DNA of 64,000 bases from Parcubacteria group bacterium (GTDB lineage Bacteria; Patescibacteriota; Minisyncoccia; UBA10092), in the NCBI GenBank assembly GCA_016186325.1, contig JACPLW010000002.1, positions 1,485-65,484 on the forward strand, given 5' to 3'. How positions within the stretch are numbered: position 1 is the stretch's first letter; every line of letters begins with the position of its first letter. A model generated the notes under the pieces. It was not told the origin of the DNA. It did not search any database and worked only from the letters and a program-made list of their open reading frames with translations. Below are positions 2,546 to 46,596 of the stretch, one piece after another. A program made the position numbers and the translations under genes.

Positions 2546-2565
2546 TTATTAAATTATCAACTTAG

Positions 2566-2637
2566 TGGGCGCACTAGGATTCGAACCTAGAACCGGTCGT
2601 GTATAAGACGACTGCTCTGCCATTGAGCTATACGCCC
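2566..2637 (-). tRNA. tRNA-Ile (anticodon UAU)
   Basis: Minus-strand cloverleaf GGGCGTA...TGCGCCC; anticodon stem GTCGT/ACGAC; loop CTTATAC gives anticodon TAT. Confidence 0.65.
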
Positions 2638-4870: not shown

Positions 4871-6208
4871 TTACAAATCTCTAATTTCTTGGCCATTATA
4901 ACCGCCTAAAACTCGAATACATTGGTTATGATCTCTAATTTTCCTCATCAGCCCTTGAAAAGCTGAAAGAGTGGCATGGGTAACAATTACCTGCCACGGA
5001 TTTATCTTGTATACCCATTCAGACAGCTCTTTTCCGGAAGCATGCGACGAGAGATGAAATCTCTCCACATCGCAATGTCTGGGAATTTGCTGACGGTTTA
5101 CTTGGAACTGATGGCCGCGCTCAAGCTCTAAGAGCCGCCGGCCGCCGGTGCCCTCTACTTGATAACCCGGCAAAAGCACCGCGCTTTTATGGTCTGTCAG
5201 AATGTGGGGCAGATAAAACATCGCGAGTCCGCCCTCAAGCATTCCATGGGAAGAAACGATTACCGCCGGACCGCTTTTAAGAAGTTCTTGGCGGTAAGCG
5301 TAGGCCTCTTCCTGCTCTTCGGGAACGGCAATCAAATTTCTGGGAAAAGCTAAGCCATTATCATTAGGACTCCATTCATTAGAGTCGTTGATGATACCGG
5401 CCGCCGTTCTAATCATCCCATCAATATGAACCGGAACATCAATTCCGGCCTTGGCTAAGCCATTGGCCAAAATAATGCCTATGTTCGGTCCAGTGATGGA
5501 AAAAGACGGGACCAAAACCTTTCCACCCCGGCCTAGAATCCCGATAACCCGATTAACAAACCGTTGTTCCTCATGTTCACGGTCCGGCAAATTCCGGTCG
5601 CCGTAAGTTCCCTCCGTGATTAAAACCTCCGGAGAAAAAATATCATTGATAACTTCAGCCCCCTTAATGGTCGGCTGGTCGTGAAAACTAATGTCTCCCG
5701 AATGAGTTATCCTAAAACCGCTTGGGGAAACGATATCGATGCTCGCCGCTCCATTAATGTGGCCGGATGACCGAAATCTCATTTTCCAGCCCGGCCAAGG
5801 CGAAAACCATTCCGGCTTATGGACTAACTTAAATCTTTTGGGACTCACCGCCTTACTTATATCGGAAGCGGAGAAATATATATCAACTTTTTCTCCTCTA
5901 TCCAGTTTACGAGTTACGACTTTGTAAGAATCCCACAAAAGCATGCGGGTAAAGCGCCAAGTAACTTTGGTGCTGTAAACAGGCGTATCGGGATGCGCGT
6001 TCGTAAAAAGAGGCAGCATTCCGATGTGGTCAAGATGGCCGTGAGTTAAAAGCAACGCATCAACATGGCCTTCCACTATCGGCGGAGGCAAAATCTTTCC
6101 GCCTCTTTGCACTGCTCCGCAGTCAATAACAATCCTTTTGTTGTCAAGTTCAATTAAGTAATGAGACCCCGAGATGGGGACTCCGCCACTGAGCGCAGTA
6201 AACCTCAC
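4871..6208 (-). CDS. MBL-fold beta-CASP ribonuclease (RNase J / CPSF-like)
   Basis: 445 aa; metallo-beta-lactamase motif HGHLDHIG; beta-CASP-like C-terminal region. Confidence 0.65.
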   Translation of the reverse strand: MRFTALSGGVPISGSHYLIELDNKRIVIDCGAVQRGGKILPPPIVEGHVDALLLTHGHLDHIGMLPLFTNAHPDTPVYSTKVTWRFTRMLLWDSYKVVTRKLDRGEKVDIYFSASDISKAVSPKRFKLVHKPEWFSPWPGWKMRFRSSGHINGAASIDIVSPSGFRITHSGDISFHDQPTIKGAEVINDIFSPEVLITEGTYGDRNLPDREHEEQRFVNRVIGILGRGGKVLVPSFSITGPNIGIILANGLAKAGIDVPVHIDGMIRTAAGIINDSNEWSPNDNGLAFPRNLIAVPEEQEEAYAYRQELLKSGPAVIVSSHGMLEGGLAMFYLPHILTDHKSAVLLPGYQVEGTGGRRLLELERGHQFQVNRQQIPRHCDVERFHLSSHASGKELSEWVYKINPWQVIVTHATLSAFQGLMRKIRDHNQCIRVLGGYNGQEIRDL

Positions 6209-7677: not shown

Positions 7678-7799
7678 AAAAACAATCCGAGCACCTGCTT
7701 TCGCTCGTCGTCGGCGGATCGTGTTTCGCCGAAGCCGAGCTTCAGCGAGGCGAAGGCGGGGAAGATTCTTTGACAACAATAATAAACAAGGAAGAGGCG

Positions 7800-9182: not shown

Positions 9183-10418
9183 TTAAACTTTTTCTTCTTT
9201 CCCGCCCGTCATTGCCTGCGCCTGCCCGCCAGTCGCTGATGCTCCAGGCATCTGCAGGCGGGGCTCAGACTGCTCACGGACAGGCAAAAGACCCAAACTC
9301 ATCCGGTGTTCATCGGGAATAAAAGTTAAAACTTGAAATTTATATTTTTTGCCCGCTTCAAGCGCGGCTTTCATTTTATCGCCTGTGCCAAACTCCGAAA
9401 TATGACAAAGTCCTTGCAAAGATTCGTTATCCGGACAAACCACCTCAACAAAAGCGCCAAATGGATTAAACTTTTTAACCAGACCTTCAACTGTTTTGCC
9501 TTTTTCAAAATGAGGAATGGCCACTTTCCAAGGATCGGGCTTTAACCGCTTTAAAGACAGAGAAATCCTGTCATTGGTGATGTCAATAATCTGGGCAGAA
9601 ACATCATCACCGACTTTCACAAAATCAGCCGGATTTTCTATTAATTGCCAATCAAGTTCGGAAATGTGAATTAGCCCTTCGAGCTTGTCTTCACCAGCGG
9701 GCTTGCCCTCCGTAACCACGCTTTGCGGGGTGAAGGAGGACCATTTTATAAACGCGCCCCAATCAACAATGCCGGAAATCTCACCTTTGACAATATCGCC
9801 TATTTGATAATGGCCGATGGCCTCTTTAAAGTTTTCTTCTTCGGCCGCTTTTTCCGAAACAATCAGTTTGCCTTCTTTAGAATCAAAGTCTAAAACGCGC
9901 ACCTTAAAGTCACAGCCTATGAATTTTAACAGCTCTTCTAATATCTTTGTTTTGTCTCCGCCCTCAACCCGCGGGTAATGTTCGTTTGAGAGCTGACTAA
10001 CCGGAAGAAATCCGGCAACGCCGCTGATTTCAATCATCAGTCCGCCGCGATTGGCGTTAATTATTTTTGTGACAACTGCTTTATTTGTCTTTTTCAGTTC
10101 ACGAATCAAATCCCATGATTTCTGACTTTGAGCTTCCGCGAGAGACAACTCTCTTAAACCGGCCTCATTTTCGACTTCCACAATTTTGGCAAAAACACTA
10201 TCGCCGATTTTCAGGTTCTTTATTATGTTTTGGGCATTGGCAAATTCTATGCCGTAAACAATGCCAATACCGAAAATGCCAAGATCAATATATAAATTCT
10301 TGGCGGTTTTATTTAGCACTCTTCCTTCAATTACCTCGCCGGCCTTGGGCATGTTAAATGCTTTTGGCAGTTTGGCCAGAAGATTTTGCATATTTAAAAT
10401 TCCTATTTGAGCTTCCAT
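9183..10418 (-). CDS. rpsA: 30S ribosomal protein S1 (four S1 domains)
   Basis: 411 aa with repeated S1 OB-fold signatures (GxV.G.V..I...GaFV); GC-rich C-terminal tail. Confidence 0.8.
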   Translation of the reverse strand: MEAQIGILNMQNLLAKLPKAFNMPKAGEVIEGRVLNKTAKNLYIDLGIFGIGIVYGIEFANAQNIIKNLKIGDSVFAKIVEVENEAGLRELSLAEAQSQKSWDLIRELKKTNKAVVTKIINANRGGLMIEISGVAGFLPVSQLSNEHYPRVEGGDKTKILEELLKFIGCDFKVRVLDFDSKEGKLIVSEKAAEEENFKEAIGHYQIGDIVKGEISGIVDWGAFIKWSSFTPQSVVTEGKPAGEDKLEGLIHISELDWQLIENPADFVKVGDDVSAQIIDITNDRISLSLKRLKPDPWKVAIPHFEKGKTVEGLVKKFNPFGAFVEVVCPDNESLQGLCHISEFGTGDKMKAALEAGKKYKFQVLTFIPDEHRMSLGLLPVREQSEPRLQMPGASATGGQAQAMTGGKEEKV

Positions 10419-17496: not shown

Positions 17497-17653
17497 TTTT
17501 ATCGGGGCATAGTATACCGGCAGTACGCAGAAGAAAAATTTTATTATTTCTATAATCGGGCAATTAAAATCTAAAACAGGGTGTGGTCTAGCAGCTATGA
17601 CGCCGGCTTCGGGAGTCGGAAATCGAGGGTGCAAGCCCCTCCACCCTGACAGG

Positions 17654-18550
17654 TCAAGCAGTAAGAAACTTTTTAAACTTATTTTTCAGGTTCTTCTCTG
17701 AAAATTCCTTAGGGTAAATGTCTTTAGAATAAATCGCTATTAAAGCAATTTTATTTTTATAACAAAGTTTCTTTTTTTCTTTTATGGCCCGGTCATATCT
17801 GGGGCTATCGTTTGCTAACCCAAAATATTCTACAAAAGTTTCTTTATTTTTAGCGAATACTTTCCAATCCGTTTTATGGTGTGTTTTTGGATAACACGCA
17901 TCTCTTTCGTGTAATATATTATTTTTATAAAGCCAGTTATCAATCAAAAGCTCCGAAACGGAATCGCATAAATGACCATCTATAGCCGTAGCATTAATAC
18001 GCCTATACATCCGATTGTCGTGTGAGCGATTGGGGATAAACCCTGCCGCCTGAATAGTATTATTCCAAGAACCAAAAATTTTTATACACGACTTAGTAAT
18101 TCTTTCCATCTCTCGCCTCGCGGGTACTCTTTCAAATTTCTGCGTAAACTGTTTTATGATATCTATAAGTTGTTCAGAGGTATGGCTCCTTGTTTCTATC
18201 CGGCACTTCATAGAGCAATATTTTAGATTTCCATTACCCTTTTTGAAATGCTCTTTGCAATTTATGCAAGTTTTTAATTGCGCCTTTCTCTTCGGACTTT
18301 TTTTATTATTTACTATTGCGGCACAAGACCGAGAACAATAACTATGTGGAGAGATTTCGTTGGGTGTTCGTTTGAAAATCTTGCCGCAATTTTCACATAT
18401 CAATTTTTGTTTTTTCGTTTTATAGTAGTATTCGCACTTTCTTGAACAATAAAAATTCCACTTAAATTTTAAATTTTCATTAAATCGACCGACACTTCGA
18501 TAAACTGGCTTTTTACAATTTTTACAAAAAACTTTTTTAAGATTGGTCAT
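17654..18550 (-). CDS. multi zinc-ribbon protein with possible nuclease-like C-terminal domain
   Basis: 298 aa; at least five CxxC pairs in the N-terminal half; C-terminal IDGHLCDSVSELLIDNWL...HERD weakly resembles endonuclease folds. Confidence 0.5.
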   Translation of the reverse strand: MTNLKKVFCKNCKKPVYRSVGRFNENLKFKWNFYCSRKCEYYYKTKKQKLICENCGKIFKRTPNEISPHSYCSRSCAAIVNNKKSPKRKAQLKTCINCKEHFKKGNGNLKYCSMKCRIETRSHTSEQLIDIIKQFTQKFERVPARREMERITKSCIKIFGSWNNTIQAAGFIPNRSHDNRMYRRINATAIDGHLCDSVSELLIDNWLYKNNILHERDACYPKTHHKTDWKVFAKNKETFVEYFGLANDSPRYDRAIKEKKKLCYKNKIALIAIYSKDIYPKEFSEKNLKNKFKKFLTA

Positions 18551-19795: not shown

Positions 19796-19866
19796 AGCGG
19801 GTAGGGGGAATCGAACCCCCGTCATTAGCTTGGAAAGCTAAGGTAATTCCATTATACGATACCCGC
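19796..19866 (-). tRNA. tRNA-Gly (anticodon UCC)
   Basis: Minus-strand cloverleaf; acceptor GCGGGTA/TACCCGC; anticodon loop TTTCCAA; T-arm GGGGG TTCGATT CCCCC. Confidence 0.75.
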
Positions 19867-19921
19867 CTTCGTCCCGCCTCGGCGGGACTTCGGCGGGGCA
19901 AGCCCGCCAAAACTAAAGCCA

Positions 19922-21757: not shown

Positions 21758-21960
21758 ATTGATATTTTCCTAAAATCTTTAAAGTCATTTTAGTACTTGT
21801 ACATGATAACAAAAATAAATATTTTTGTCAAAGGTGTTTATTTATGAAAAATTTGATTTAAAAAAAACCGCTTAATGACCAAGCGGAACTATTTTTATAA
21901 TTAGTTTTTTCTTTCTTTTAACGTTCTGCCGATTTTATATTCCGTCCCTATCTTTCTCTT

Positions 21961-22245
21961 TCATGCGCTGTCTCCTGTACGAAACAAATGACGAAATGGT
22001 TCAAGATATTTCTTAGAAATCTTCTTATCCCTGACTAGGGTCATAAGATCTCGGTTTTCCTTTGGATCTTTGTGATGAGCGGTAATAGTTGCGCCTTGTG
22101 TCTGTTCAAATAGTATCCACATATAGGTGCGGAGGGCATCGCTTATAACTTCAACGTTCTTTCGTCTTGTAATCTTAGTAAATTCTCTAATTGCATCAAC
22201 GGCTTTACCTGTAACTTCAATAGTTAATTTCTTTTTCTTTGCCAT
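21961..22245 (-). CDS. hypothetical protein (possible RHH/antitoxin-like)
   Basis: 94 aa from ATG 22245 (MAKKKKLTIEV); SD GGAGACAGAA; preceded by ~150-bp repeat copy 1. Confidence 0.45.
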   Translation of the reverse strand: MAKKKKLTIEVTGKAVDAIREFTKITRRKNVEVISDALRTYMWILFEQTQGATITAHHKDPKENRDLMTLVRDKKISKKYLEPFRHLFRTGDSA

Positions 22246-22295
22246 TTCTGTCTCCATTATCATTTGATTTAGTTTTTAAATAACAAACTTCGTTT

Positions 22296-22443
22296 AAAAC
22301 AAAAATAGCACCTGGTGCTATTTTTGTAAAGTGAGCGGGCCGCCTCGTCCGCCAACAAGGTTGGCGAGACGAGCGAGACATTGCACGCCCCTCCTTCGCC
22401 CCGCTTTGCGGGGCTTCGGACGGGCAAGCGTTAGAACTTGTTT
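22296..22443 (-). repeat. ~150-bp promoter-bearing repeat, copy 1 (family G)
   Basis: About 95 percent identical to 24361-24509; contains terminator-like hairpin AAAAATAGCACCWGGTGCTATTTTT, -35-like TTTACA and the GTGCAATGTC motif. Confidence 0.7.
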
Positions 22444-22506
22444 GGCGGGTGTAGTAAATGATTGGTTTGTGCCAAGTTTCAAATAAAAAATAGCCGCAGA
22501 GCGGCT

Positions 22507-22983
22507 TTATTTCTGATACCTCACAATATCTATACCCAAATCGATTGGGCCGAAAGCAAGGGGCAGAAGTTCCCTAATAGTAGTGAGAACAATTAACTCT
22601 TTCTTGGTGGTTGAAAGAACAATCTGTAAATCACAACCGGATATTTGGGATATTTCGTAAAGCACTTGTCTGCAACTTCCACAGGGTCCTGTAACCTCGG
22701 TCGTATCAAAGTTCTCACCACGAGCAATGACGGCAATGCCTATGAATTTTCGTATTCCCATTGCATTCGCCCTAAGTACCGCCGAGCGTTCTGCACAAAT
22801 TGTTGAACCATAAGCGGCGTTTTCAAAATTCGTTCCTGATATTAATTGTCCATCTTGTGCAATGAGCGTTGCCCCAACATAGAAGTGAGAATAAGGATTA
22901 TATGAATTTTTGAGAACTTCCAATGCTGAATTTAATGCTTCTCGTTGTAGTTGACTCAACAATTCATATTTTACTGTCTGCAT
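22507..22983 (-). CDS. cdd: cytidine deaminase
   Basis: Zinc motifs CAERSAV and PCGSCRQ; SD GTGGAGG before ATG 22983 (the ORF track starts at an upstream GTG). Confidence 0.8.
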   Translation of the reverse strand: MQTVKYELLSQLQREALNSALEVLKNSYNPYSHFYVGATLIAQDGQLISGTNFENAAYGSTICAERSAVLRANAMGIRKFIGIAVIARGENFDTTEVTGPCGSCRQVLYEISQISGCDLQIVLSTTKKELIVLTTIRELLPLAFGPIDLGIDIVRYQK

Positions 22984-23086
22984 TTTTGCCTCCACTATTA
23001 CTGCAGCATGAATGTGTCAACTGTAAATTGTATAACATATTTATTTTTTTGCAAGCAGTTTAAAATTTCCTTTCATCACTCGTAAC

Positions 23087-23118
23087 CGCAACAAAAACAA
23101 CCGCGCAATTGCGCGGTT
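23087..23118. terminator. perfect 32-bp palindrome, terminator-like
   Basis: AAAAACAACCGCGCAATTGCGCGGTTGTTTTT. Confidence 0.55.
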
Positions 23119-23174
23119 GTTTTTATAACAAGCAGGACATTGCACGCTTGCCCACATTGTTTATTTTTGTGAAA

Positions 23175-23205
23175 TGAGAAAACCGCATGGCGTACCATGC
23201 GGCTT
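23175..23205 (-). terminator. intrinsic terminator, second of a tandem pair after gene 23246-23830
   Basis: Minus strand GCCGCATGGTACGCCATGCGG followed by TTTTCTC. Confidence 0.55.
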
Positions 23206-23230
23206 CTCGGTGAACGTTGTTACCGAGTTG

Positions 23231-23252
23231 TTTCTACTGCGACGGCTAGTTA
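23231..23252 (-). terminator. hairpin at the stop codon of gene 23246-23830
   Basis: GCGACGGCTAGTTAGCCGTCG, 10-bp stem. Confidence 0.45.
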
Positions 23253-23830
23253 GCCGTCGATATCTTCATCCGTACCGTAGGTCGGTGGATGAAAAGAAGG
23301 TACATCATCATGGTGTTGCCAGTCAGGAATCCGACCGGCTGGATCAAGTGCTCCCAGTTAAGCGTTGGGATTGCGAGCATCGCGGGGATACAAGAAGCCC
23401 AGAAGAAGCACCAGCCTGCACGAGACTCATCCTGTGGCCTGTACCATATATTCACGAAAGTCGGGATTGTTCCGACCAATCCCGTGACTTGCGCCGCCAA
23501 CATTCCAAGAATGGGGCTGTCAAAAATCCCCCAGAGCGCGATGCCGACCAGCGCGCCTACGAGCGACCACGTGTCCACTCGCGTCCATCCTGACTTGCCG
23601 TACTTGAGCGACAGTAGGAAGACGAGACACGCTCCGGTGATCGCTCCGACAATTTGTCCATTCACTGCATCCTTCACATACATCCCCGCGAAGGTGATAC
23701 CGTCTATGACCAACCAGATCAACCACGAGGCTTTCATTGGTTGGGTCTGCCGCTTGATTATTGCGGCAACGTAGGGCACGAACCCTAGTAAGAAGATGAC
23801 TCCAGAGAGCTGTGACAGAAACGTCCGCAT
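23246..23830 (-). CDS. polytopic membrane protein (GC-rich, hypothetical)
   Basis: 194 aa; 5-6 hydrophobic helices; SD GGAGGTG before ATG; visibly GC-richer than the flanks. Confidence 0.55.
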   Translation of the reverse strand: MRTFLSQLSGVIFLLGFVPYVAAIIKRQTQPMKASWLIWLVIDGITFAGMYVKDAVNGQIVGAITGACLVFLLSLKYGKSGWTRVDTWSLVGALVGIALWGIFDSPILGMLAAQVTGLVGTIPTFVNIWYRPQDESRAGWCFFWASCIPAMLAIPTLNWEHLIQPVGFLTGNTMMMYLLFIHRPTVRMKISTAN

Positions 23831-23964
23831 TGCGCACCTCCATTTTGTCTGTGAGTGTTTGGGGATTTAATAAGTATGATCTCTGCGACACAATAAAGCT
23901 CAGGATTTCTTCAGCTCAATTGTGTCGCAGGGATGAATTTAAAGATCCAATATTGATACATGCA

Positions 23965-23994
23965 ATTATACCATATAAACTTGATGCTTGTCAA
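23965..23994 (-). promoter_or_regulatory. consensus sigma70 promoter (TTGACA-18-TATAAT) for membrane protein gene
   Basis: Minus strand reads TTGACAagcatcaagtttatatggTATAAT, immediately preceded by CGTGCAATGTCCCGCTCA; the leader holds a 12-bp inverted repeat CTGCGACACAAT/ATTGTGTCGCAG. Confidence 0.6.
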
Positions 23995-24101
23995 ATGAGC
24001 GGGACATTGCACGACGTTAGAACCTGTTTTGAGCAAAATAAAACTGCCCTGGTCTATGCCTTGTCGACAGTTGTTATGATAAAGTGATGGACAGAGTAGT
24101 A

Positions 24102-24320
24102 TTATCGATAATCTCGATTACCGGGTGGTTCTAAAATTAAGACACTGTTCTCGGAAATGTTTAATTCTTTAAGCTTTGGTTTCAAGCCACCGTAGTTGTC
24201 TTTTTCGTATTGCTCATCTAGAAGCCTTTTTGCTTCCAGCTCATCATTAGCAGTTATCAAGAGCACTTGAGGTGTGCTGTAGAAGTCTCTTTCACAGTAA
24301 AATACGCACTTGTTGGCCAT
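24102..24320 (-). CDS. hypothetical small protein
   Basis: 72-aa ORF; ~150-bp repeat copy 2 lies upstream. Confidence 0.4.
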   Translation of the reverse strand: MANKCVFYCERDFYSTPQVLLITANDELEAKRLLDEQYEKDNYGGLKPKLKELNISENSVLILEPPGNRDYR

Positions 24321-24360
24321 TTTTCTTCCCCTTGTCTCTTAACTTTTAAGATTAAAGAAC

Positions 24361-24509
24361 AAAACAAAAATAGCACCAGGTGCTATTTTTGTAAAGTGAG
24401 CGGGCCGCCTCGTCCGCCAACAAGGTTGGCGAGACGAGCGAGACACTGCACAACCCTCCTTCGCCCCGCTTTGCGGGGCTTCGGACGGACAAGCGTTAGA
24501 ACCTGTTTT
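24361..24509 (-). repeat. ~150-bp promoter-bearing repeat, copy 2 (family G)
   Basis: See copy 1; a partial copy lacking two internal hairpin modules lies at 23996-24045. Confidence 0.7.
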
Positions 24510-24616
24510 GAATAAAAGATTCAAAATACTTGGCATTCGCTACAGCGATTTAGTTACCCTATCGTGTATTGCACTATTTTTTTCGCCGTGATACAAAATA
24601 CCGTCAGGAGGCGAAA

Positions 24617-24946
24617 ATGGCCAAGGCGCATCTAAGTTCAATCTCTGTAACTATGCCAGACGGCGACATCCTAGTTTGTAGTATTAACTGCGGCGAACTC
24701 GTAGACGGGTTGAAGCTCATGTCCTCTCCGTCCGTGCGAGAAGTCCGCTTCAGCATAGTGGACGAAGAAGGAAGAGACGGAACTCTTCTTTTCGTTAAGG
24801 ATAGTCAACGAGCAATAGCGGTCTACGCGATTCCTATGGCTTTGCAAGATCCGAAGGTCTATTACGACAACCTTGCGACCCGAGCTAAAGCCGCTGCGAT
24901 GGGAGGAGTGATGGGCTGTCTCGAAGAGTTACGTGGAGATGATTGA
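24617..24946 (+). CDS. hypothetical protein
   Basis: 109 aa from ATG 24617 with SD CAGGAGGCG (the ORF track starts further upstream). Confidence 0.45.
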   Translation: MAKAHLSSISVTMPDGDILVCSINCGELVDGLKLMSSPSVREVRFSIVDEEGRDGTLLFVKDSQRAIAVYAIPMALQDPKVYYDNLATRAKAAAMGGVMGCLEELRGDD

Positions 24947-25056
24947 CGCATACGACGACCAAAGAGTATCTCGGCCGTCTTTTTACTTAGCGGTTAGATT
25001 TCTACCTACTTTTAATTCAGAACACCATATTATGTGCAGCACTCTGACGGCAAGCG

Positions 25057-25092
25057 GGTGAGCAGAATCGAACTGCCGTTAATCTTTTTAAG
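25057..25092 (-). other. tRNA 3'-end-like fragment (T-arm plus acceptor, resembles tRNA-Gly 3' end)
   Basis: Reverse complement GGCAG TTCGATT CTGCT CACCCGC T; no matching 5' half nearby. Confidence 0.4.
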
Positions 25093-25162: not shown

Positions 25163-25834
25163 ATGCGTAATGATAAGCATATTGCTATAAAATTAAGAAA
25201 GCAAGGGAAAAGTTACAGTAAGATAAGCAAAGAGTTGAACGTGCCTAAAAGCACGTTGTCTGCTTGGCTTTCGGATATAAATTGGTCTAGGTTTATAAAA
25301 ATTGGTCTTACGAGAAGAGCTAATTATATTGCTAGAAAACGATTACGATCATACAATAAAAAACAGAAAATATTTTGGGAAGCGTGGCGAGCACAGGCAA
25401 GACAACAAGCTCGCAGTAGCTTTCCGAAACTTAAGTCAAATCCTCTCTTTATATCAGGAATAATGATTTATTGGGGCGAAGGTGATAGTAAAATAGAAAA
25501 TTCCAACGTCAGGATATCAAACACTAATCCAGATATGATCAGGGTTTTTAATTTATTTTTGCGGATAATTTGTAAGGTCCCAAAAGAAAAAATAAAAATG
25601 GCAATGATTTTATACCCTGATCTCAATGAAATCAAATGTAAAAATTTTTGGAGTAAGACTTCTGGTGTGCCTAAGGGTCAATTTATAAAAACTCAATTTA
25701 TCAGGGGTAAACATCCTACCAAAAGATTGACTCACGGAATTGCTTTAGTATACTACCCTAGTAGAGAACTAAAAGAAAAAATATTCGTCTGGATTGAGCT
25801 TTTCCACAAACAATTTCCGCTCATGCGGGTGTAG
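25163..25834 (+). CDS. HTH-domain protein, possible LAGLIDADG-like nuclease; paralog of 31894-32562
   Basis: N-terminal HTH LRKQGKSYSKISKELNVPKSTLSAWL; central IMIYWGEGDSK resembles a LAGLIDADG-type motif; 3' end overlaps tRNA-Gly. Confidence 0.5.
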   Translation: MRNDKHIAIKLRKQGKSYSKISKELNVPKSTLSAWLSDINWSRFIKIGLTRRANYIARKRLRSYNKKQKIFWEAWRAQARQQARSSFPKLKSNPLFISGIMIYWGEGDSKIENSNVRISNTNPDMIRVFNLFLRIICKVPKEKIKMAMILYPDLNEIKCKNFWSKTSGVPKGQFIKTQFIRGKHPTKRLTHGIALVYYPSRELKEKIFVWIELFHKQFPLMRV

Positions 25835-25898
25835 CACAATGGTAGTGCGCTTGGTTGCCAATCAAGATACGTGGGTTCGATTCCCATCACCCGCTCCA
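25825..25898 (+). tRNA. tRNA-Gly (anticodon GCC)
   Basis: Acceptor GCGGGTG/CACCCGC; anticodon loop TTGCCAA; T-loop TTCGATT; CCA encoded. Confidence 0.8.
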
Positions 25899-27246: not shown

Positions 27247-27732
27247 TTAGAGATCTCGTTTCAGCTTAGGATTCCACAGCGTCAATTCGATTTTTCTTTT
27301 CCCTCCGAATGTAAAGTGATGCCGGGCAGGGTAACCTGATTTAGACGTGTTACTTATTGCCTTATTACCACCTATATAGAAACCGATATGTTTATGCGCA
27401 TTACCATTTCTAAAATCTGTTTTTTCCCATACTATTACACTTCCGATTTCGGGTTTTTTTATTTCTTTCCATCCGGATTTTTTTAAATCCTTAACGGTAG
27501 AATCAACGGTCGCGTGCCCTTCTTTAATAAACCTAAACAACAGTAAAATTGACGAAACATAAAACGCGCATGAAAGTTCGCCGTTTCTCGTAATATCGGT
27601 TTTTTTGCCATTTACTTTTGCGTATAAATTACGAAACAGCTTAGAACCGACACTGTTTTTAATAACAGCAATATACGTGTCGAAAATAATTAGAATTACT
27701 TTTTGTTTTTTTGCTGAAGTCGCCGAATTCAT
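27247..27732 (-). CDS. putative papain-like (NlpC/P60 or CHAP-like) cysteine amidase
   Basis: 161 aa; candidate Cys (GELSCAFYVSS) and His (HIGFYIG) catalytic residues. Confidence 0.35.
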   Translation of the reverse strand: MNSATSAKKQKVILIIFDTYIAVIKNSVGSKLFRNLYAKVNGKKTDITRNGELSCAFYVSSILLLFRFIKEGHATVDSTVKDLKKSGWKEIKKPEIGSVIVWEKTDFRNGNAHKHIGFYIGGNKAISNTSKSGYPARHHFTFGGKRKIELTLWNPKLKRDL

Positions 27733-28319
27733 CGCTTCTCGTATTCTTTGTGCACTTTGCCGGATTTTTTAATTGACGGCGTGAGCGCTATTTTATCTTC
27801 GTCCCATTTGGCGGGGCAAACTTTTCCCGGATTTTTAGAAACGAACTCAAGCGCCTTGAGCTTGCGGAGCGTTTCAACAGCGCTTCGCCCGATCGAATCG
27901 GAAACAATGTCAACGGCGCGCAGTATGCCCCCTGGGTCAATAATAAAAGTTGCCCGCTCTGCCATGCCATTTTCTTCGCTATAAATGCCTAATTCTTTAG
28001 AAAAATTTCCATTATGGTCTGACGCGAGCGGATATTTAATTCCGGACAGCAGTTTTTCAATTTCCAGCCAAGCCTTGTGGGTATAAACCGTGTCGGTGCT
28101 CACTGCCACGATTTCAGCTTTGAGCTTTTTAAATTCGGGGTAAAGATGATTTAAATCGGCAAGTTCGGTCGGGCAAACAAAAGTAAAGTCCGCCGGATAG
28201 AACAAAATAACCGTCCATTTGCCGGCAAGGTCTTTTGAAGCGAGCCGCCCGACTTCGTCTTTAAGAGGCCAATAAACCTCCAAAGAGAAGTGGGGAAATT
28301 TTTTATCAATTTGAAACAT
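27729..28319 (-). CDS. peroxiredoxin (AhpC/TSA family)
   Basis: FTFVCPTE peroxidatic Cys motif; likely start at MFQIDKK (28319) rather than the ORF-track start, which would overlap the upstream gene. Confidence 0.85.
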   Translation of the reverse strand: MFQIDKKFPHFSLEVYWPLKDEVGRLASKDLAGKWTVILFYPADFTFVCPTELADLNHLYPEFKKLKAEIVAVSTDTVYTHKAWLEIEKLLSGIKYPLASDHNGNFSKELGIYSEENGMAERATFIIDPGGILRAVDIVSDSIGRSAVETLRKLKALEFVSKNPGKVCPAKWDEDKIALTPSIKKSGKVHKEYEKR

Positions 28320-28365
28320 AATTTTATATATTTTAATTTTACCAGAAAATCGTTGAAATGAAATA

Positions 28366-28397
28366 GGGACAGGCGGTGCTGAAACACTGCCTGTCCC
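28366..28397 (-). terminator. terminator hairpin after the sigma54-activator gene
   Basis: GGGACAGGC-N14-GCCTGTCCC. Confidence 0.5.
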
Positions 28398-28419
28398 CCC
28401 TGAATCTGACCGGCCGGCA

Positions 28420-29502
28420 TCAAACCTTGCCTTTCGAAATTTTCGTATCATTTCTCCAGCATCCCCGAGTACTACCCAATCCATACCTATGCAACTTACT
28501 GTACAAAGTTTTTAGGGCTATTCCAAGGCTTATAGCGGTTAGTTTTTTATCACCGCCCGAATTTTTTAGCGCCGCCGAAATCATCTCAGCCTCGAGACTG
28601 GCCATGGCCTCTGAGAGAGATCTGCCCCTCTCTGGATGAGAAACTGCGCTATTGACTTGATTGATTTGGGCAGATTCGCCAACCGCCACCTCGGTGTCCA
28701 TCTTACCAAGCGCGGTTCGCACTGCCTCAACGGTCAAAACCCCAATGTCTTTATTTGAAAACAACTTTGAATGTTTGATAACATTTTTCAGCTCGCGGAC
28801 ATTGCCCGGCCAGCGGTGCTGGCACAAAAGCGCGAGCACGCCTTCCTCAATCTCTTCCTCTTCAGATTCAGATATCTGAAGGAAATGGCGCGTAAGAAGC
28901 CCGAGATCGCCATCACGTTCCCGAAGCGGCACAATTGGCACGGGGAATTCGTAGAGCCGATAGAAGAGATCGCTGCGAAACTTGCCATTCTTAACCATTG
29001 CGTAAAGATTTGCGCCCGTCGCAACAATCAATCGAACATCCACCGGCCTGTACTTCGTCTCGCCGATTCTGCGAACCTCATGATTCTCGGTAGCCCGAAG
29101 AAACCGAGCCTGAAGATGCGGCGGCATATCCTCGACCTGATCAATAAAGAGTGTCCCGCCATTCGCGGCCTCAATAAGGCCTATTGCTGGATGATGTGCG
29201 CTTGTGAATGCGCCTCGATCATGGCCAAAGAGCTCGTTCTCCATAAGTTCCATTGCTAGCGAGGCACAATCAACTATAATGAACGGCTCATTCGCGCGAT
29301 TACTCATCGCGTGAATCTCATGCGCGGCCACTTCTTTGCCGACGCCGGTCTCGCCCTGGAGGACAATGGTTTCCTCCGTCGGCGCGAGCTGCTCAAGCGT
29401 CCTCTTCATCTTCTGTATTCCGGCGCTTTCTCCTATAAATCTGGACCATCTTACTTGAGTCTCTGTTCGCAATCCAATGCCTTGCATCCCAATCCTATTC
29501 AT
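28420..29502 (-). CDS. sigma-54-dependent transcriptional activator (AAA+ plus Fis-type HTH, no receiver domain)
   Basis: Walker A GETGVGKE; GAFTSA; ESELFGH; C-terminal HTH; SD GAGGGGGA before ATG. Confidence 0.85.
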   Translation of the reverse strand: MNRIGMQGIGLRTETQVRWSRFIGESAGIQKMKRTLEQLAPTEETIVLQGETGVGKEVAAHEIHAMSNRANEPFIIVDCASLAMELMENELFGHDRGAFTSAHHPAIGLIEAANGGTLFIDQVEDMPPHLQARFLRATENHEVRRIGETKYRPVDVRLIVATGANLYAMVKNGKFRSDLFYRLYEFPVPIVPLRERDGDLGLLTRHFLQISESEEEEIEEGVLALLCQHRWPGNVRELKNVIKHSKLFSNKDIGVLTVEAVRTALGKMDTEVAVGESAQINQVNSAVSHPERGRSLSEAMASLEAEMISAALKNSGGDKKLTAISLGIALKTLYSKLHRYGLGSTRGCWRNDTKISKGKV

Positions 29503-29642
29503 TATTATCCCCCTCGGTGTTAAGGTTCAACTTCCTGTCACTACCGACAAAATACAATAAAAACATAGAAAAGTCAAATAATAAAACAACTCGTAATTTA
29601 CTCTTTGAATTAATAAGGACGCGGCGTATTCAGGTGAGCCAT

Positions 29643-30395
29643 TTAAAAAAGATCAATTTTGCTTTTCCAATCGTCCATAATATTTACCATTTTCTCGTTA
29701 TCAGAACGGCCGAGTTTTTTCAACTGCTTCTTGTCGTCTACCCATTCGCCCCCGTCCCAATATTCAACATTGTCAAATACTGTTTTGTATAATGCTTTTT
29801 CACCGTACACGGTACCTACATAAAAATAATTCCTGACGGCTTTTTGAGCATGCCTCACACCGTCTAACATCAACCACATACCGAGTGACTGGAAAACAAG
29901 AGAAAGATCATAAAAAGAATACCAAAAATGAGTCATATCTTTATCTGAAACCTCAAAGACATAAGCTAATGGCTTATTATTCATACTATATGAAACTATG
30001 TCGGTTATAAGGCCATGATTGAGTATCGTTTTCAAACGCTCTTCAGGCATCACCAAGGGTCCATGCCGTTTTGAAAAATAATCAGAACAAAAATTAATGA
30101 AACCTTTGTTGCTTATGTCAAAATTCTTAAGTGGCACCAATTCGCGAATCAGTTTACCGTCAAATTTTCTTGCAACTCGGCGATTTTCGCTTGAAAGTTT
30201 AAATGACCCCAACGGAACACGCGCGCTTCGAGCCATATAAAAAATATCCTTAACTCCAGGACTGCCAGAATACGGCAAATAGCCGGCAGTATAGATGTCA
30301 GAGAGTTTGTCTTTTTTGTTCCGAATACAATAATTCGCGTAACCAAAAGAATATGTTTTATAATTGTGTCCAAATTCACTTTGAAACTTTTTCAT
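29643..30395 (-). CDS. arginyl/leucyl-tRNA--protein transferase-like (ATE/Bpt family)
   Basis: C-terminal YFYVGTVYGEKALYKTVF..VEYW resembles the ATE_C signature (YLGY...KM.YK..F). Confidence 0.45.
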   Translation of the reverse strand: MKKFQSEFGHNYKTYSFGYANYCIRNKKDKLSDIYTAGYLPYSGSPGVKDIFYMARSARVPLGSFKLSSENRRVARKFDGKLIRELVPLKNFDISNKGFINFCSDYFSKRHGPLVMPEERLKTILNHGLITDIVSYSMNNKPLAYVFEVSDKDMTHFWYSFYDLSLVFQSLGMWLMLDGVRHAQKAVRNYFYVGTVYGEKALYKTVFDNVEYWDGGEWVDDKKQLKKLGRSDNEKMVNIMDDWKSKIDLF

Positions 30396-31804
30396 TTTTT
30401 ATAATTTTCTTCTAACCACTTTGTTACCAACCCTACAAACCCGTCAAATCCTCCCGAGGACATGGCAAGCACTACCGAGTCCTTATCAACGTTATTCTCC
30501 ATTAATACTATTCCCTTTTGTATACTGTCAAATCCCCTAACCGAATGCCCCGCTTCACTTACTCTGTTTACTATCTCTTTCAATGTTAACCCGCTATCAT
30601 TCGGGGGTTTATATATAAAAATTTGATAAGCGCCGTCAAAAACTCTGTCGTACCAATCAATCGCTTCGCGACTTCTCCAACTTAAAGAGTGTGGCTCGAA
30701 CAAAATTATAAGCTTCTTGCCGGGAAAATGAGCTCTAACTGCTTCTATCGCCGACTTTGCCTTAGGAAGAGACGAACCAAATCCTTCATAAAACGGAACT
30801 GATGTTTTGTCTGATTTTTTGTCCAACCGCCTGTTAATTGCCTTGAAGGAAGCGATGGCTTCAGAAAATTCGCTTGGAACAACCAGATTCAGCGACAGCA
30901 ACAAGACGCCTGCGCCAAGAATATTCTCAACATTATGAAGCCCAAGTAAATTCGTCTTTACATTAACTATAAAACTCTCTCCCTTAAAAATATCGAAACA
31001 GGTTATCTCTCCTAATTTAATATTTTCAATATGCCAGTCGGCATTGCTCTTTGTACTGTAAAAATTTGTTTGTTCCTCAAGGCCGCATTTTGAAATTGTT
31101 TCTTTTACTCCTTCACCGTCGGCACATGCAACAATTAATCCGCCCGGAGGGATTGAGGATAGTAATTCAATAAATGGAGCTTTGTAGTCGTTATGGGTCT
31201 TAAATACATTAACGTGGTCGTGAGCCAAAGACGTCAGTAAAACATGCTTTGGATGATAATGTAAAAATTTAGACGAGTCGTCCCAGTTTGATGTTGGATA
31301 CTCATCACCCTCAAGCACGAATATATTACCGTCTCCCTTCTTGGAACTTTCATCGGGAGTATTGGGTATTGCGCCAATGAAGTAGCTGGGATCCTTTCCG
31401 GCATATTCAAGACACCATGCAACAAGAGCCGCGCAAGTTGATTTACCATAACTGCCAACTGCCACAACATTTTCTTTGCCTATATTTAGCTCTCCCAGAA
31501 CTTCGGGAAATGACTTTACCGAAACACCCGAAGAAAAAGCAGCCTCAACTTCTTTATTCTCTTCCTTCGTTAAACCAGAATGTCTGCCAATTATAATTAA
31601 GCTGGTATCCTTAGGAATATTGCTTGGACTGTATCCTTTTTTAAAATTGATGTTGTGTCTTTTTATGTATTCCGAAACGGGCGGATAAAAGTTGTCGTCA
31701 GAACCGCTCACCTGCCAACCATAGTCAATAAGCAGTTTTGCAACCGCGCTCATCCCAGCACCGCAAATACCAATAAAGTGAGCTTTTTTGTTTTGAGAAG
31801 ACAT
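30392..31804 (-). CDS. Mur ligase family protein (MurC/Mpl-like)
   Basis: HFIGICGAGMS N-terminal Rossmann; GSYGKSTC P-loop of Mur ligase middle domain. Confidence 0.65.
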   Translation of the reverse strand: MSSQNKKAHFIGICGAGMSAVAKLLIDYGWQVSGSDDNFYPPVSEYIKRHNINFKKGYSPSNIPKDTSLIIIGRHSGLTKEENKEVEAAFSSGVSVKSFPEVLGELNIGKENVVAVGSYGKSTCAALVAWCLEYAGKDPSYFIGAIPNTPDESSKKGDGNIFVLEGDEYPTSNWDDSSKFLHYHPKHVLLTSLAHDHVNVFKTHNDYKAPFIELLSSIPPGGLIVACADGEGVKETISKCGLEEQTNFYSTKSNADWHIENIKLGEITCFDIFKGESFIVNVKTNLLGLHNVENILGAGVLLLSLNLVVPSEFSEAIASFKAINRRLDKKSDKTSVPFYEGFGSSLPKAKSAIEAVRAHFPGKKLIILFEPHSLSWRSREAIDWYDRVFDGAYQIFIYKPPNDSGLTLKEIVNRVSEAGHSVRGFDSIQKGIVLMENNVDKDSVVLAMSSGGFDGFVGLVTKWLEENYKK

Positions 31805-31810
31805 TTTTCG

Positions 31811-45699: not shown

Positions 45700-46596
45700 T
45701 TATTTTCTCTGTTTTCCGTGAAAAGCGTTGTGGACTTCTCTTAATTTTTTATCGGTTATGTGGGTGTAAATTTGAGTCGTGGTTATATTTGAGTGTCCCA
45801 AAAGTTCCTGAACCGAGCGGATATCGGCGCCATTCATTAAAAGATCTGTGGCAAACGAGTGGCGCAAAGTATGGGGCGTGACTTTTTTTGAAAGCCCGGC
45901 TTTAGCCGCATAATGCTTCATCAACCGTTCAACACTTCGGCTTGTCAACCGCAGATTATCGGTCTTGGCCGGATTTTTTGTTTGCCTGATGAAAAGTGCC
46001 TCGTCAACGTCCTCTCGTCTTTCCAAATAGTTTTTTAGCGCTTCTTTGGCGGTATCGGAGATGAAAACCAGGCGGACTTTATCTCCTTTGCCGCGCACCG
46101 AAAACTCGCCGGATTTAAGGTTGACCGAATCGCGGTTTAAATTGCAAAGTTCAGAAACCCGCAGTCCGGTGGAAAATAATAGTTCCAAGATAGCTTTATC
46201 ACGAGCGTTGGTTGGAGATGTTAGTAGGCGCTCAATTTCGTTCCCTTCAAGGAAAGATACCTGCCTCTCCGATTGTTTCCCCAGCTCAATTTTGTCGGCC
46301 GGCATAACCTTGAAATCCCGCCGTGCCAGATATTTTAAAAAATTCCTAAGCCCTATTAAATAATAATTCTGGGTGATCTTTTTAAGCCCTCTTCCGTCCT
46401 GATTTGCCTGCCGGTTCAGCCAAAGACGGTATTGCCTGACCATTTCCGGTGTGATTTGTTCCGGTTTTAAAACCTTAGAAAACTCAAAGAATTTTTTTAA
46501 ATACCGTTCGTAATTCACCCGCGTTTTAATTGACCGGTTTTTTTCTATTTCCAGATAATCCAAATAGTCTTTTAGCAATTCGCCTATGTTTGTCAT
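45700..46596 (-). CDS. tyrosine site-specific recombinase (XerC/XerD-like)
   Basis: RHSFATDLLMNGADIRSVQELLGHSNITTTQIYTHI with catalytic R..H..Y. Confidence 0.85.
   Translation of the reverse strand: MTNIGELLKDYLDYLEIEKNRSIKTRVNYERYLKKFFEFSKVLKPEQITPEMVRQYRLWLNRQANQDGRGLKKITQNYYLIGLRNFLKYLARRDFKVMPADKIELGKQSERQVSFLEGNEIERLLTSPTNARDKAILELLFSTGLRVSELCNLNRDSVNLKSGEFSVRGKGDKVRLVFISDTAKEALKNYLERREDVDEALFIRQTKNPAKTDNLRLTSRSVERLMKHYAAKAGLSKKVTPHTLRHSFATDLLMNGADIRSVQELLGHSNITTTQIYTHITDKKLREVHNAFHGKQRK

What the first reader, a model, noticed from the sequence alone, without database searches (positions are those of the whole stretch)
21961..24509. Four consecutive minus-strand genes each preceded by a GTGCAATGTC(C/T) motif; two carry a ~150-bp promoter-containing repeat
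The motif (plus-strand GGACATTGCAC) occurs at 22378, 23135, 24002 and 24442. Each time it lies upstream of a minus-strand gene: the small protein 21961-22245, cdd, the GC-rich membrane protein, and the small protein 24102-24320. Copies 1 and 2 sit in ~150-bp repeats that are about 95 percent identical (22296-22443, 24361-24509). A third copy (23996-24045) is the same element minus two internal hairpin modules and abuts a consensus promoter (CCCGCTCATTTGACA). Three tandem terminators (23087-23252) separate the membrane gene from cdd. This looks like a co-regulated module with a shared cis element and modular hairpin insertions.
Basis: seen in the sequence. Interest (0 to 1): 0.65.

Follow-up and report, generated by a model that had tools for sequence, protein, structure and literature searches.

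The report
Gene-cassette junction repeats beside tRNA-Gly
The repeated motif most likely does not switch the four genes on together; it is a conserved ~33-base junction sequence that marks the ends of small, horizontally acquired gene cassettes stacked next to a glycine tRNA gene in a groundwater Parcubacteria (CPR) genome.

Summary
The sequence features are real. There is a 148-nt direct repeat (142/148 identical). A short copy lacks two GC-rich hairpins and abuts a perfect TTGACA-18-TATAAT promoter. A fourth, partial copy lies between terminators.

Comparison with about 85 related groundwater loci changes the reading. In relatives, tRNA-Gly(GCC) sits 96-121 bp upstream of rny. In this genome about 3.3 kb of strain-specific genes is inserted there. 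The motif is the core of a ~33-nt element (AAACAGGTTCTAACGTCGTGCAATGTCCCGCT). Its last 6-8 nt equal the tRNA-Gly 3' end.

Two comparisons place this element at insertion boundaries:
- Empty versus filled site: an insertion at tRNA-Gly(TCC) in L127 ends with it.
- The same membrane-gene cassette starts directly after a real tRNA-Gly in L216, and directly after the core here.

The core is 31/32 identical between genomes whose flanks do not align. Its spacing to promoters varies, and in some copies no promoter follows.

The rest of the 148-nt repeat is made of three parts:
- a copy of the native tRNA-Gly 3'-flank palindrome, which looks like both a terminator and a promoter;
- a hairpin from a dispersed family of ~40-nt palindromes, one of which is inserted in-frame in a coding gene;
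- a second hairpin.

Best reading: att-like cassette boundaries in a tRNA-linked variable islet. The recombination mechanism is inferred, and no integrase lies in the islet.

The parts
25053..25079 (-). 27-nt 3' remnant (T-arm plus acceptor end, ...CACCCGCT) of the native tRNA-Gly(GCC). This is the anchor of the insertion hotspot.
   Evidence: 100% identical to positions 6150-6176 of the intact tRNA-Gly(GCC) of relative L127. ARAGORN finds no tRNA here.
24410..25052 (.). Cassette 1 body. It carries a 109-aa ORF (24617-24946, plus strand, no family match) and ends in element B.
   Evidence: Begins directly after CACCCGCT of the tRNA remnant. No homologue in 80 related loci. GC3 0.50.
24361..24508 (-). 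Element B (148-nt repeat). Parts: left core half ...GGTTCTAACG (24495-24508), hairpin-2 module (24454-24494), motif GTGCAGTGTC (24442-24451), hairpin 1 (24405-24440), CCCGCTCA (24397-24404), palindrome with TTTACA-17-TATTTT (24364-24392).
   Evidence: The right part aligns to the 3' flank of tRNA-Gly(GCC) in L127 and L143.
24102..24320 (-). 72-aa ORF ('gene 4'), the cargo of cassette 2. No family match.
   Evidence: Exact copies occur in short contigs from independent assemblies (Logan).
23996..24030 (-). Core copy 3, without hairpins: AAAACAGGTTCTAACGTCGTGCAATGTCCCGCTCA. It is the distal end of cassette 2.
   Evidence: nhmmer E=1.8e-11. 31/32 identical to L131 2359-2390 and 93% identical to L128 8512-8540, while the flanks do not align.
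23965..23994 (-). Consensus sigma-70-type promoter TTGACA-18-TATAAT. It starts 1 nt after the core and opens cassette 3.
   Evidence: 12/12 match. L216 also has a TTGACA promoter directly after its tRNA-Gly 3' end, upstream of the homologous gene.
23879..23934 (-). Conserved 5'-UTR hairpin of the membrane gene.
   Evidence: Inverted repeat I2. The same hairpin, with compensatory changes, occurs in L216 and in Sungbacteria loci L217-L219.
23246..23830 (-). 194-aa multi-pass membrane protein gene with foreign base composition. This is the cargo of cassette 3.
   Evidence: GC3 0.69. No Pfam or NCBIfam family. Homologues: 82% aa in L216, 75% in a Sungbacteria MAG.
23131..23153 (-). Partial core copy 4: GGGCAAGC (hairpin-module remnant, in the orientation seen in L127) plus GTGCAATGTCCTGCT. 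It is the distal end of cassette 3. Terminator hairpins flank it at 23183-23202 and 23093-23124.
22507..22983 (-). cdd (cytidine deaminase), the cargo of cassette 4. It has its own promoter-like site (23054..23027) and terminator (22492-22506).
   Evidence: Pfam PF00383 1.5e-15. Promoter and terminator scans. Absent from the 80 related loci.
22296..22443 (-). Element A (148-nt repeat). Parts: left core half (22430-22443), hairpin-2 module (22389-22429), motif GTGCAATGTC (22377-22386), hairpin 1 (22340-22375), CCCGCTCA (22332-22339), palindrome (22299-22327).
   Evidence: From CCCGCTCA onward it is 90% identical to the region upstream of the gene-1 homologue in L127.
21961..22245 (-). 94-aa ORF ('gene 1'), the last cassette before the rny promoter (21831..21803).
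   Evidence: In L127 its 85%-aa homologue lies inside an insertion at tRNA-Gly(TCC) instead. In L207 a 53% homologue lies between a tRNA remnant and rny.
25163..25898 (+). HTH plus LAGLIDADG-like protein gene (25163-25834), followed immediately by an intact tRNA-Gly(GCC) of a different sequence type (25825-25898). The unit is inverted and occupies the place of the 5' two-thirds of the native tRNA.

Best explanation
GTGCAATGTC is the middle of a conserved ~33-nt junction element, AAACAGGTTCTAACGTCGTGCAATGTCCCGCT(CA). Its last 6-8 nt are the 3' end of tRNA-Gly.

The region between the former tRNA-Gly(GCC) and rny is an insertion hotspot, and small single-gene cassettes have piled up there. Each cassette begins directly after a CCCGCT. 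That CCCGCT is either the tRNA end or a copy of it inside the previous junction. The cassette then brings its own promoter, or the tRNA-type terminator/promoter palindrome, and ends with the junction element. The four motif copies are therefore cassette boundaries (att-like sites or scars) and not operators.

The 148-nt repeat consists of:
- the junction element;
- two GC-rich hairpins, one of them a member of a dispersed, RPE-like palindrome family;
- a copy of the native tRNA-Gly 3'-flank palindrome.

**Shown:** the boundary position, the conservation, the variable cargo and the hairpin polymorphism.

**Inferred:** the junction is the recognition or crossover site of a recombinase supplied in trans. 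Recombination between junction copies or with the tRNA end would insert, excise or reshuffle cassettes.
For: 1. **Backbone.** p260 - tRNA-Gly(GCC) - rny is conserved in about 14 relatives. The tRNA-to-rny spacer is 96-121 bp in L130, L132 and L134-137, but 0.7-5.5 kb with unrelated genes in the others and about 3.3 kb in the window.
2. **Empty versus filled site.** In the window, tRNA-Gly(TCC) runs straight into its native flank. In L127 a ~520-bp insert carrying the gene-1 homologue starts right after TACCCGCT. It ends with the core variant AAAAACAGGCTCTAATATCGTGGCATAACTCGCTCA, and the same native flank then resumes.
3. **Membrane cassette.** The cassette (promoter, conserved 5'-UTR hairpin, gene; 79.5% DNA identity against 71% for rny) starts directly after a real tRNA-Gly 3' end in L216 and directly after core copy 3 here. 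In L216 it ends with a core-like sequence, followed by a promoter and a MazE/Fic pair.
4. **Location and orientation.** All 12 core-family copies compared (4 in the window, 8 in L127, L128, L131, L145/L171 and L216; L216's is a weak match, E=1.1) lie downstream of a tRNA-Gly gene in the tRNA's orientation. No match with E<1 lies elsewhere in about 940 kb searched.
5. **Conservation.** The core is 31/32 identical between the window and L131, although rny DNA is 76% identical and the flanks do not align.
6. **Right part of the repeat.** It is homologous to the tRNA-Gly(GCC) 3' flank of L127 and L143, with one compensatory stem change. In L138 a true 17-nt partial tRNA occupies the core's position.
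7. **Foreign cargo.** Membrane gene GC3 is 0.69.
8. **Possible excision junction.** Logan contig L122 joins cdd to a hybrid A/B element to gene 4. That is the junction expected after recombination between copies A and B.
Against: - No integrase or transposase lies in any of the islets examined. The only tyrosine recombinase in the window is an ordinary Xer-type gene 21 kb away.
- The core has no obvious dyad symmetry of the kind usual for tyrosine-recombinase core sites (by inspection).
- The last cassettes in the window, L131 and L207 have no distal core.
- Only two clean boundary comparisons exist.
- L122 may be a k=31 assembly chimera, because the two repeats share 68 identical bases and the contig looks low-coverage.
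- Most core copies are directly followed by a promoter-like sequence, so a transcriptional role is not excluded.
- No viral contig carries the core.
Confidence: 0.62

Rival explanations
1. Passive relics. The elements are decayed partial or pseudo tRNA-Gly copies: leader hairpin, D-arm-like GTCGTGCAATG, acceptor 3' end and terminator. They were left by old integrations or duplications and spread only by homologous recombination or segmental duplication. No dedicated site-specific system acts on them today.
For: - Element A aligns with the leader hairpin plus the 5' part of tRNA-Gly(TCC) and tRNA-Gly(GCC) genes: score 41-51 against a shuffle maximum of 31-34.
- Its end and flank equal the tRNA-Gly 3' end plus terminator.
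- L138 carries a true 17-nt partial tRNA in the same position.
- No integrase is present in the islets.
- Partial tRNAs scattered through tRNA-linked islands are known (10.1101/2020.12.28.424599).
Against: - The core is 31/32 identical across genomes with about 76% rny DNA identity and flanks that do not align. Neutral relics should not be preserved like that.
- tRNA covariance models do not recognise any copy at E<=5. ARAGORN calls none of them.
- Most of the alignment score comes from the separately mobile hairpin module.
Confidence: 0.2
2. The motif is an operator, activator or UP-type site upstream of promoters that co-regulates the four genes.
For: In 8 of 12 copies a -35-like hexamer follows within 1-10 nt of the core. 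These include a perfect consensus promoter at copy 3 and the rny promoter in L127. The sequence is conserved independently of its flanks.
Against: - Spacing to -35 is not fixed (1, 3, 8, 9 or 10 nt).
- Four copies have no promoter after them.
- The real tRNA-Gly 3' end is followed by a promoter in the same way (L130, L132, L134, L216). So promoter adjacency is a property of the insertion point.
- The cargo genes are unrelated, strain-specific and differ in composition.
- Copy 4 lies between terminators.
Confidence: 0.1
3. The 148-nt repeats encode a structured small RNA or mRNA leader.
For: Strong predicted folding: -75 kcal/mol, z about -7.
Against: - The stability comes from three independent hairpins. 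Two are absent from other copies, and one is a mobile palindrome found even inside a coding gene.
- The conserved core alone does not fold (z +0.8).
- No Rfam family matches.
Confidence: 0.05

Closest known systems
tRNA-linked genomic islands built by successive site-specific integrations, for example the Prochlorococcus islands with tycheposons
   Same: Variable DNA sits directly 3' of a tRNA gene. Copies of the tRNA-end motif separate neighbouring inserts, and newer inserts push older ones away from the tRNA. Degenerate remnants lacking integrases occur, and the cargo is strain-specific (10.1101/2020.12.28.424599; window data).
   Different: The units here are single genes of 0.4-0.9 kb, and no integrase is seen in any islet. 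The repeated site shares only 6-8 nt plus a T-loop-like GGTTCTAAC with the tRNA. It is otherwise a conserved non-tRNA sequence. The host is a CPR bacterium.
Integron cassette arrays (attI / attC / IntI)
   Same: One-gene cassettes in one orientation. Each ends in a recombination-site-like element, and they are stacked at one primary site. Composition is heterogeneous, and toxin-antitoxin cargo occurs (MazE/Fic in L216).
   Different: There is no IntI gene. The core is not an attC-type imperfect palindrome with R''/R' core sites. The cassettes carry their own promoters. The primary site is a tRNA 3' end.
Xer-dependent dif modules (pdif modules of Acinetobacter plasmids) and other elements that borrow the host Xer recombinase
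   Same: Small gene modules bounded by short conserved sites, with no recombinase of their own. The host Xer recombinase is the only tyrosine recombinase in reach (window 45700-46596). This comparison rests on general knowledge.
   Different: The core shows no 11-6-11 dif-like dyad. No link to Xer was tested.
Rickettsia palindromic elements and other MITE-like palindromes (for the hairpin modules only)
   Same: Short GC-rich palindromes, dispersed and present or absent between relatives. They insert in intergenic DNA, next to RNA genes and in-frame inside a protein gene (review PMC10969869).
   Different: They are only about 40 nt long. No terminal inverted repeats or target duplications could be defined. 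They often abut the 5' end of tRNA-Gly genes.

Membership tests
Integron | Integron integrase (IntI) gene next to the array | tested here: not met
   The only tyrosine recombinase in 64 kb is at 45700-46596. It passes the XerA-type model (253.6 bits, cut-off 220). It falls far below the integron-integrase cut-offs: 134.9 against 265, and 92.9 against 435.
Integron | attC sites: imperfect palindromes with inverse core RYYYAAC and core GTTRRRY at the two ends | tested here: not met
   By inspection, the core has no end-to-end palindrome and no RYYYAAC / GTTRRRY pair. The short core does not fold (z +0.8). No attC model was available to run.
tRNA-targeting integrative element or genomic island | Insertion at the 3' end of a tRNA gene, with presence or absence varying between relatives | tested here: met
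   Empty sites in L130, L132 and L134-137, and filled sites elsewhere. The insert boundary lies at ...CCCGCT.
tRNA-targeting integrative element or genomic island | Flanking direct repeats that are partial copies of the tRNA | tested here: inconclusive
   The shared stretch is only CCCGCT(CA), plus a T-loop-like GGTTCTAAC. L138 has a true 17-nt partial tRNA at the same position.
tRNA-targeting integrative element or genomic island | Integrase encoded within the element | tested here: not met
   By reading the islet ORF translations in L127, L128, L131, L133, L138, L139, L143 and L146, none looks like an integrase. None was found among the window ORFs scanned.
Transcription-factor or UP-type promoter element | Fixed position relative to the -35/-10 hexamers of the regulated promoters | tested here: not met
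   Spacing is 1, 3, 8, 9 or 10 nt, and 4 of 12 copies have no promoter-like site.
Transcription-factor or UP-type promoter element | Co-expression of downstream genes and a cognate binding protein | not testable with these tools
   No expression or binding data are available.
tRNA gene or pseudogene | Match to a tRNA covariance model or cloverleaf | tested here: not met
   No RF00005 match at E<=5 in 21800-24700. ARAGORN finds nothing there.
MITE / RPE-like palindromic element (hairpin-2 module) | Many dispersed copies with presence/absence polymorphism, including in-frame insertion in coding genes | tested here: met
   Six copies in the window plus copies in L131, L156 and L135. A ~39-nt in-frame insertion lies in ORF 9183-10418 and is absent from the L127 orthologue. 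The module occurs in both orientations at the same point of the core: window versus L127 and copy 4.
MITE / RPE-like palindromic element (hairpin-2 module) | Terminal inverted repeats and target-site duplication | tested here: inconclusive
   The outer stem arms act as inverted repeats. No clear target duplication was seen for module 2. GAGCG(G/A) flanks hairpin 1 on both sides.

The most novel reading that the evidence does not exclude
Parcubacteria carry an integron-like gene-cassette system without an integron integrase. The 3' end of tRNA-Gly would serve as the primary attachment site. A conserved ~33-nt cassette-borne site (AAACAGGTTCTAACGTCGTGCAATGTCCCGCT) would serve as the secondary site. 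A recombinase supplied in trans would insert, excise and shuffle promoter-equipped single-gene cassettes. The lone Xer-type enzyme, or another tRNA-associated DNA-binding protein, could be that recombinase. This would give these tiny genomes a dedicated gene-capture locus.
Probability: 0.2. Interest if true: 0.8.

Novelty: new variant of a known kind. Interest (0 to 1): 0.5.

Why it matters
CPR/Patescibacteria have very small genomes, and little is known about how they gain genes. A tRNA-Gly-anchored locus that collects self-expressed single-gene cassettes behind a conserved junction site would be a concrete route for gene flow in this group, and it can be tested.

For annotation, the practical points are:
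- The motif should not be read as a regulon signal.
- The 148-nt repeats break assemblies. Nearly all contigs from independent assemblies (Logan) of this locus start or end inside them; the one that runs through, L122, gives a different join.

Tried and rejected
- **Genome-contig scan with the 16-mer GAGCGRGACAYTGCAC.** It returned 120+ hits in unrelated phyla. None extended beyond the seed, so these are chance matches and the scan was wasted.
- **Viral contig scans with the 23-nt and 18-nt core.** There was no hit for the long pattern. The short pattern gave two hits in GC-rich (50-58% GC), unrelated-looking sequence, taken as chance. No phage attP was found.
- **Rfam, at gathering and E-value thresholds.** Only tRNAs elsewhere in the window and sub-threshold noise (a Leu leader match on the terminator hairpin).
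- **Sigma-54 promoter idea.** TGAGCGGGACATTGC against TGGCACG-N4-TTGC matches the -12 part only, and it lies on the strand antisense to the genes. Rejected by inspection.
- **attC, dif and tRNA readings of the core.** Rejected; see the membership tests.
- **L122 as proof of a circular intermediate.** Kept only as weak evidence. The two repeats share 68 identical bases, more than the k=31 of that assembly, and the contig ends inside genes. Look-ups for the flanking genes gave only contigs that break inside the repeat. cdd is not on record under either start codon.
- **D-arm similarity.** The resemblance of GTCGTGCAATG to the tRNA-Gly D-arm (TCGTATAATGG, 8-9 of 11-12) is too weak to count on its own.
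Full report
**1. What is in the sequence**

The region 21961-24509 holds four minus-strand ORFs:
- a 94-aa ORF at 21961-22245;
- cdd at 22507-22983 (PF00383, 1.5e-15);
- a 194-aa membrane protein at 23246-23830;
- a 72-aa ORF at 24102-24320.

Only cdd matches a Pfam or NCBIfam family.

A 148-nt direct repeat lies at 22296-22443 (A) and 24361-24508 (B), with 142/148 identity. Read on the minus strand, each copy has this order:
- GGTTCTAACG;
- GC-rich hairpin 2;
- GTGCA(A/G)TGTC;
- GC-rich hairpin 1;
- CCCGCTCA;
- a perfect 14+14 palindrome, ACAAAAATAGCACC.GGTGCTATTTTTGT.

The palindrome is at once terminator-like and the spacer of a 9/12 promoter match, TTTACA-17-(TG)TATTTT.

Copy 3 (23996-24030) is the same element without either hairpin. 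It is followed after 1 nt by a 12/12 TTGACA-18-TATAAT.

Copy 4 (23131-23153) is partial and lies between two strong terminator hairpins.

Exact GGACATTGCAC occurs only at 23135 and 24002. Copies A and B have one and two mismatches. The clustering is far beyond chance. No Rfam family matches.

**2. Origin and relatives**

Exact protein look-ups place the window in a 130,925-bp contig of a 'Parcubacteria group bacterium' MAG, locus tags HYW79_005xx.

Short contigs from independent assemblies (Logan) confirm the local sequence. Nearly all of them start or end inside the repeats.

A metagenome scan with the adjacent RNase Y gene gave 80 related loci from groundwater, with 54-93% aa identity.

**3. 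The backbone and the hotspot**

About 14 relatives share the order p260 - tRNA-Gly(GCC) - rny. The tRNA-to-rny spacing varies:
- In L130, L132 and L134-137 the tRNA is 96-121 bp from rny. Its 3' end (…CACCCGCT) runs straight into the rny promoter.
- In other relatives 0.7-5.5 kb of unrelated genes is wedged in.
- In the window the spacer is about 3.3 kb.

None of cdd, the 72-aa, 109-aa or membrane genes occurs at that position in any relative.

In the window the native tRNA is reduced to a 27-nt 3' remnant at 25053-25079, 100% identical to L127's tRNA.

**4. The motif is a junction element**

The conserved unit is about 33 nt: AAACAGGTTCTAACGTCGTGCAATGTCCCGCT(CA) (alignment A1).
- It is 31/32 identical between the window and L131, and 93% identical to L128. 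The flanks do not align, and rny DNA is only 76-82% identical.
- Its last 6-8 nt equal the acceptor 3' end of tRNA-Gly.
- GGTTCTAAC resembles a T-loop.

Two comparisons fix its role.
- **(a) Empty versus filled site.** In the window, tRNA-Gly(TCC) is followed by its native flank. In L127 a ~520-bp insert starts right after TACCCGCT, carries the gene-1 homologue, and ends with a core variant (…CATAACTCGCTCA). The same native flank then resumes.
- **(b) The membrane-gene cassette.** In L216 it begins directly after a true tRNA-Gly 3' end. In the window it begins directly after core copy 3. In L216 it ends with a core-like sequence, followed by a promoter and a MazE/Fic pair.

All 12 core-family copies compared lie downstream of a tRNA-Gly gene and in its orientation. 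They are 4 in the window and 8 in L127, L128, L131, L145/L171 and L216. The L216 copy is only a weak match (E=1.1). No match with E<1 lies elsewhere in about 940 kb searched.

Reading the window on the minus strand gives this order:
- the tRNA remnant;
- the 109-aa cassette, ending in B;
- palindrome plus the 72-aa gene, ending in copy 3;
- promoter plus membrane gene, ending in copy 4;
- terminator plus cdd, ending in A;
- palindrome plus the 94-aa gene;
- the rny promoter.

**5. The rest of the 148-nt repeat**

From CCCGCTCA onward, the repeat is homologous to the natural 3' flank of tRNA-Gly(GCC) in L127 and L143. It is also homologous to the flank of a true 17-nt partial tRNA in L138, with one compensatory stem change. 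A similar palindrome-containing promoter precedes the membrane gene in Sungbacteria.

Hairpin 2 belongs to a ~40-nt GC-rich palindrome family:
- It has six copies in the window and further copies in relatives, often abutting the 5' end of tRNA-Gly genes.
- One copy is a ~39-nt in-frame insertion in an S1-domain ORF, absent from the L127 orthologue.
- In the core it occurs at the same point in both orientations: the window one way, L127 and copy 4 the other.

**6. Why not a regulatory motif**
- Core-to-(-35) spacing is 1, 3, 8, 9 or 10 nt.
- Four copies have no promoter after them: in L128 the next genes are convergent, in L131 an ATG follows after 28 nt, L127c runs into a tRNA terminator, and copy 4 runs into a terminator.
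- Real tRNA-Gly ends are followed by promoters in the same way. Promoter adjacency therefore belongs to the insertion point.
- The cargo differs in composition: GC3 is 0.69 for the membrane gene, 0.50 for the 109-aa gene and 0.32-0.42 for the rest.

**7. Mechanism (inferred)**

The pattern fits site-specific insertion at CCCGCT(CA), with the core as the cassette-borne partner site. It resembles tRNA-linked islands in which partial tRNA copies separate successive inserts (10.1101/2020.12.28.424599). In organisation it also resembles integron arrays.

No integrase lies in any islet. The only tyrosine recombinase in the window is Xer-type. The core lacks obvious dyad symmetry.

Logan contig L122 joins cdd to a hybrid A/B element to gene 4. 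That is the junction expected for a 2,065-bp circle or tandem copy. It may instead be a k=31 chimera across the 68 shared bases.

The main rival reading is passive relics of pseudo-tRNA copies. It is supported by an alignment of element A to the leader hairpin plus 5' part of tRNA-Gly genes. It is weakened by the core's conservation.

**8. Comparison with known systems**

This is not an integron: there is no IntI, no attC structure, and the cassettes have promoters. It is not a tRNA. It does not look like a dif module.

It is closest to tRNA-anchored islands, with three unusual points:
- the units are single genes;
- no recombinase lies in cis;
- the conserved junction is mostly not tRNA sequence.

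Searches of the held literature found no description of such a locus in CPR.

**9. Verdict**

The co-regulation reading is not supported. The best explanation is cassette-boundary (att-like) repeats in a tRNA-Gly-linked variable islet, decorated by mobile palindromes.

Interest is moderate. It would rise if active, recombinase-driven cassette exchange were shown.

Noticed in passing
[not shown]
   Followed up: partly
window 9701-9740 inside ORF 9183-10418 (-); also 7720-7761, 19861-19903, 61141-61182: A ~40-nt GC-rich palindrome family (CCNCC-TTCG-stem-loop-stem-CTTCG-GNGGG-CAAGC). One copy is an in-frame insertion of about 13 codons in an S1-domain protein, relative to L127. Another forms the 5' leader of tRNA-Gly(TCC), with its 3' arm overlapping the tRNA's first bases; this arrangement is conserved in L131.
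   Followed up: partly
window 23879-23934 (-); L216 90-150; L217 about 5895-5950: A ~55-nt hairpin in the 5' UTR of the 194-aa membrane-protein gene. It is kept with compensatory changes in three lineages, including Sungbacteria. It may be a conserved regulatory RNA for this uncharacterised membrane-protein family.
   Followed up: partly
L122 (Logan SRR12113433) against window 22296-22749 and 23682-24508: This contig joins the 3' end of cdd to gene 4 through a hybrid element: A-type at five variable sites and B-type at the palindrome loop. It is either the junction of an excised circle or tandem duplication of the 2,065-bp unit, or a short-k assembly chimera.
   Followed up: partly
window 27250-31810 against L127 2222-5089: A second block, between tRNA-Phe and tRNA-Ala, differs completely from the closest relative. 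In the window it holds the sigma-54-type activator (28420-29502) and an AhpC-like gene. Variable DNA between tRNA genes therefore seems to be a general feature of this genome.
   Followed up: no
window 2565-2637 (-): tRNA-Ile with anticodon UAU, which is uncommon in bacteria. It is also present in relative L140.
   Followed up: no
window 61125-61210: One copy of the hairpin module is itself flanked by a perfect 12-nt inverted repeat, CTAAAGCCCATG / CATGGGCTTTAG.
   Followed up: no
window 17654-18550 (-), next to tRNA-Pro 17577-17650: A 298-aa zinc-finger-like protein with a 'homing endonuclease associated repeat' (PF18780, 2.4e-11). It lies beside another tRNA gene.
   Followed up: no
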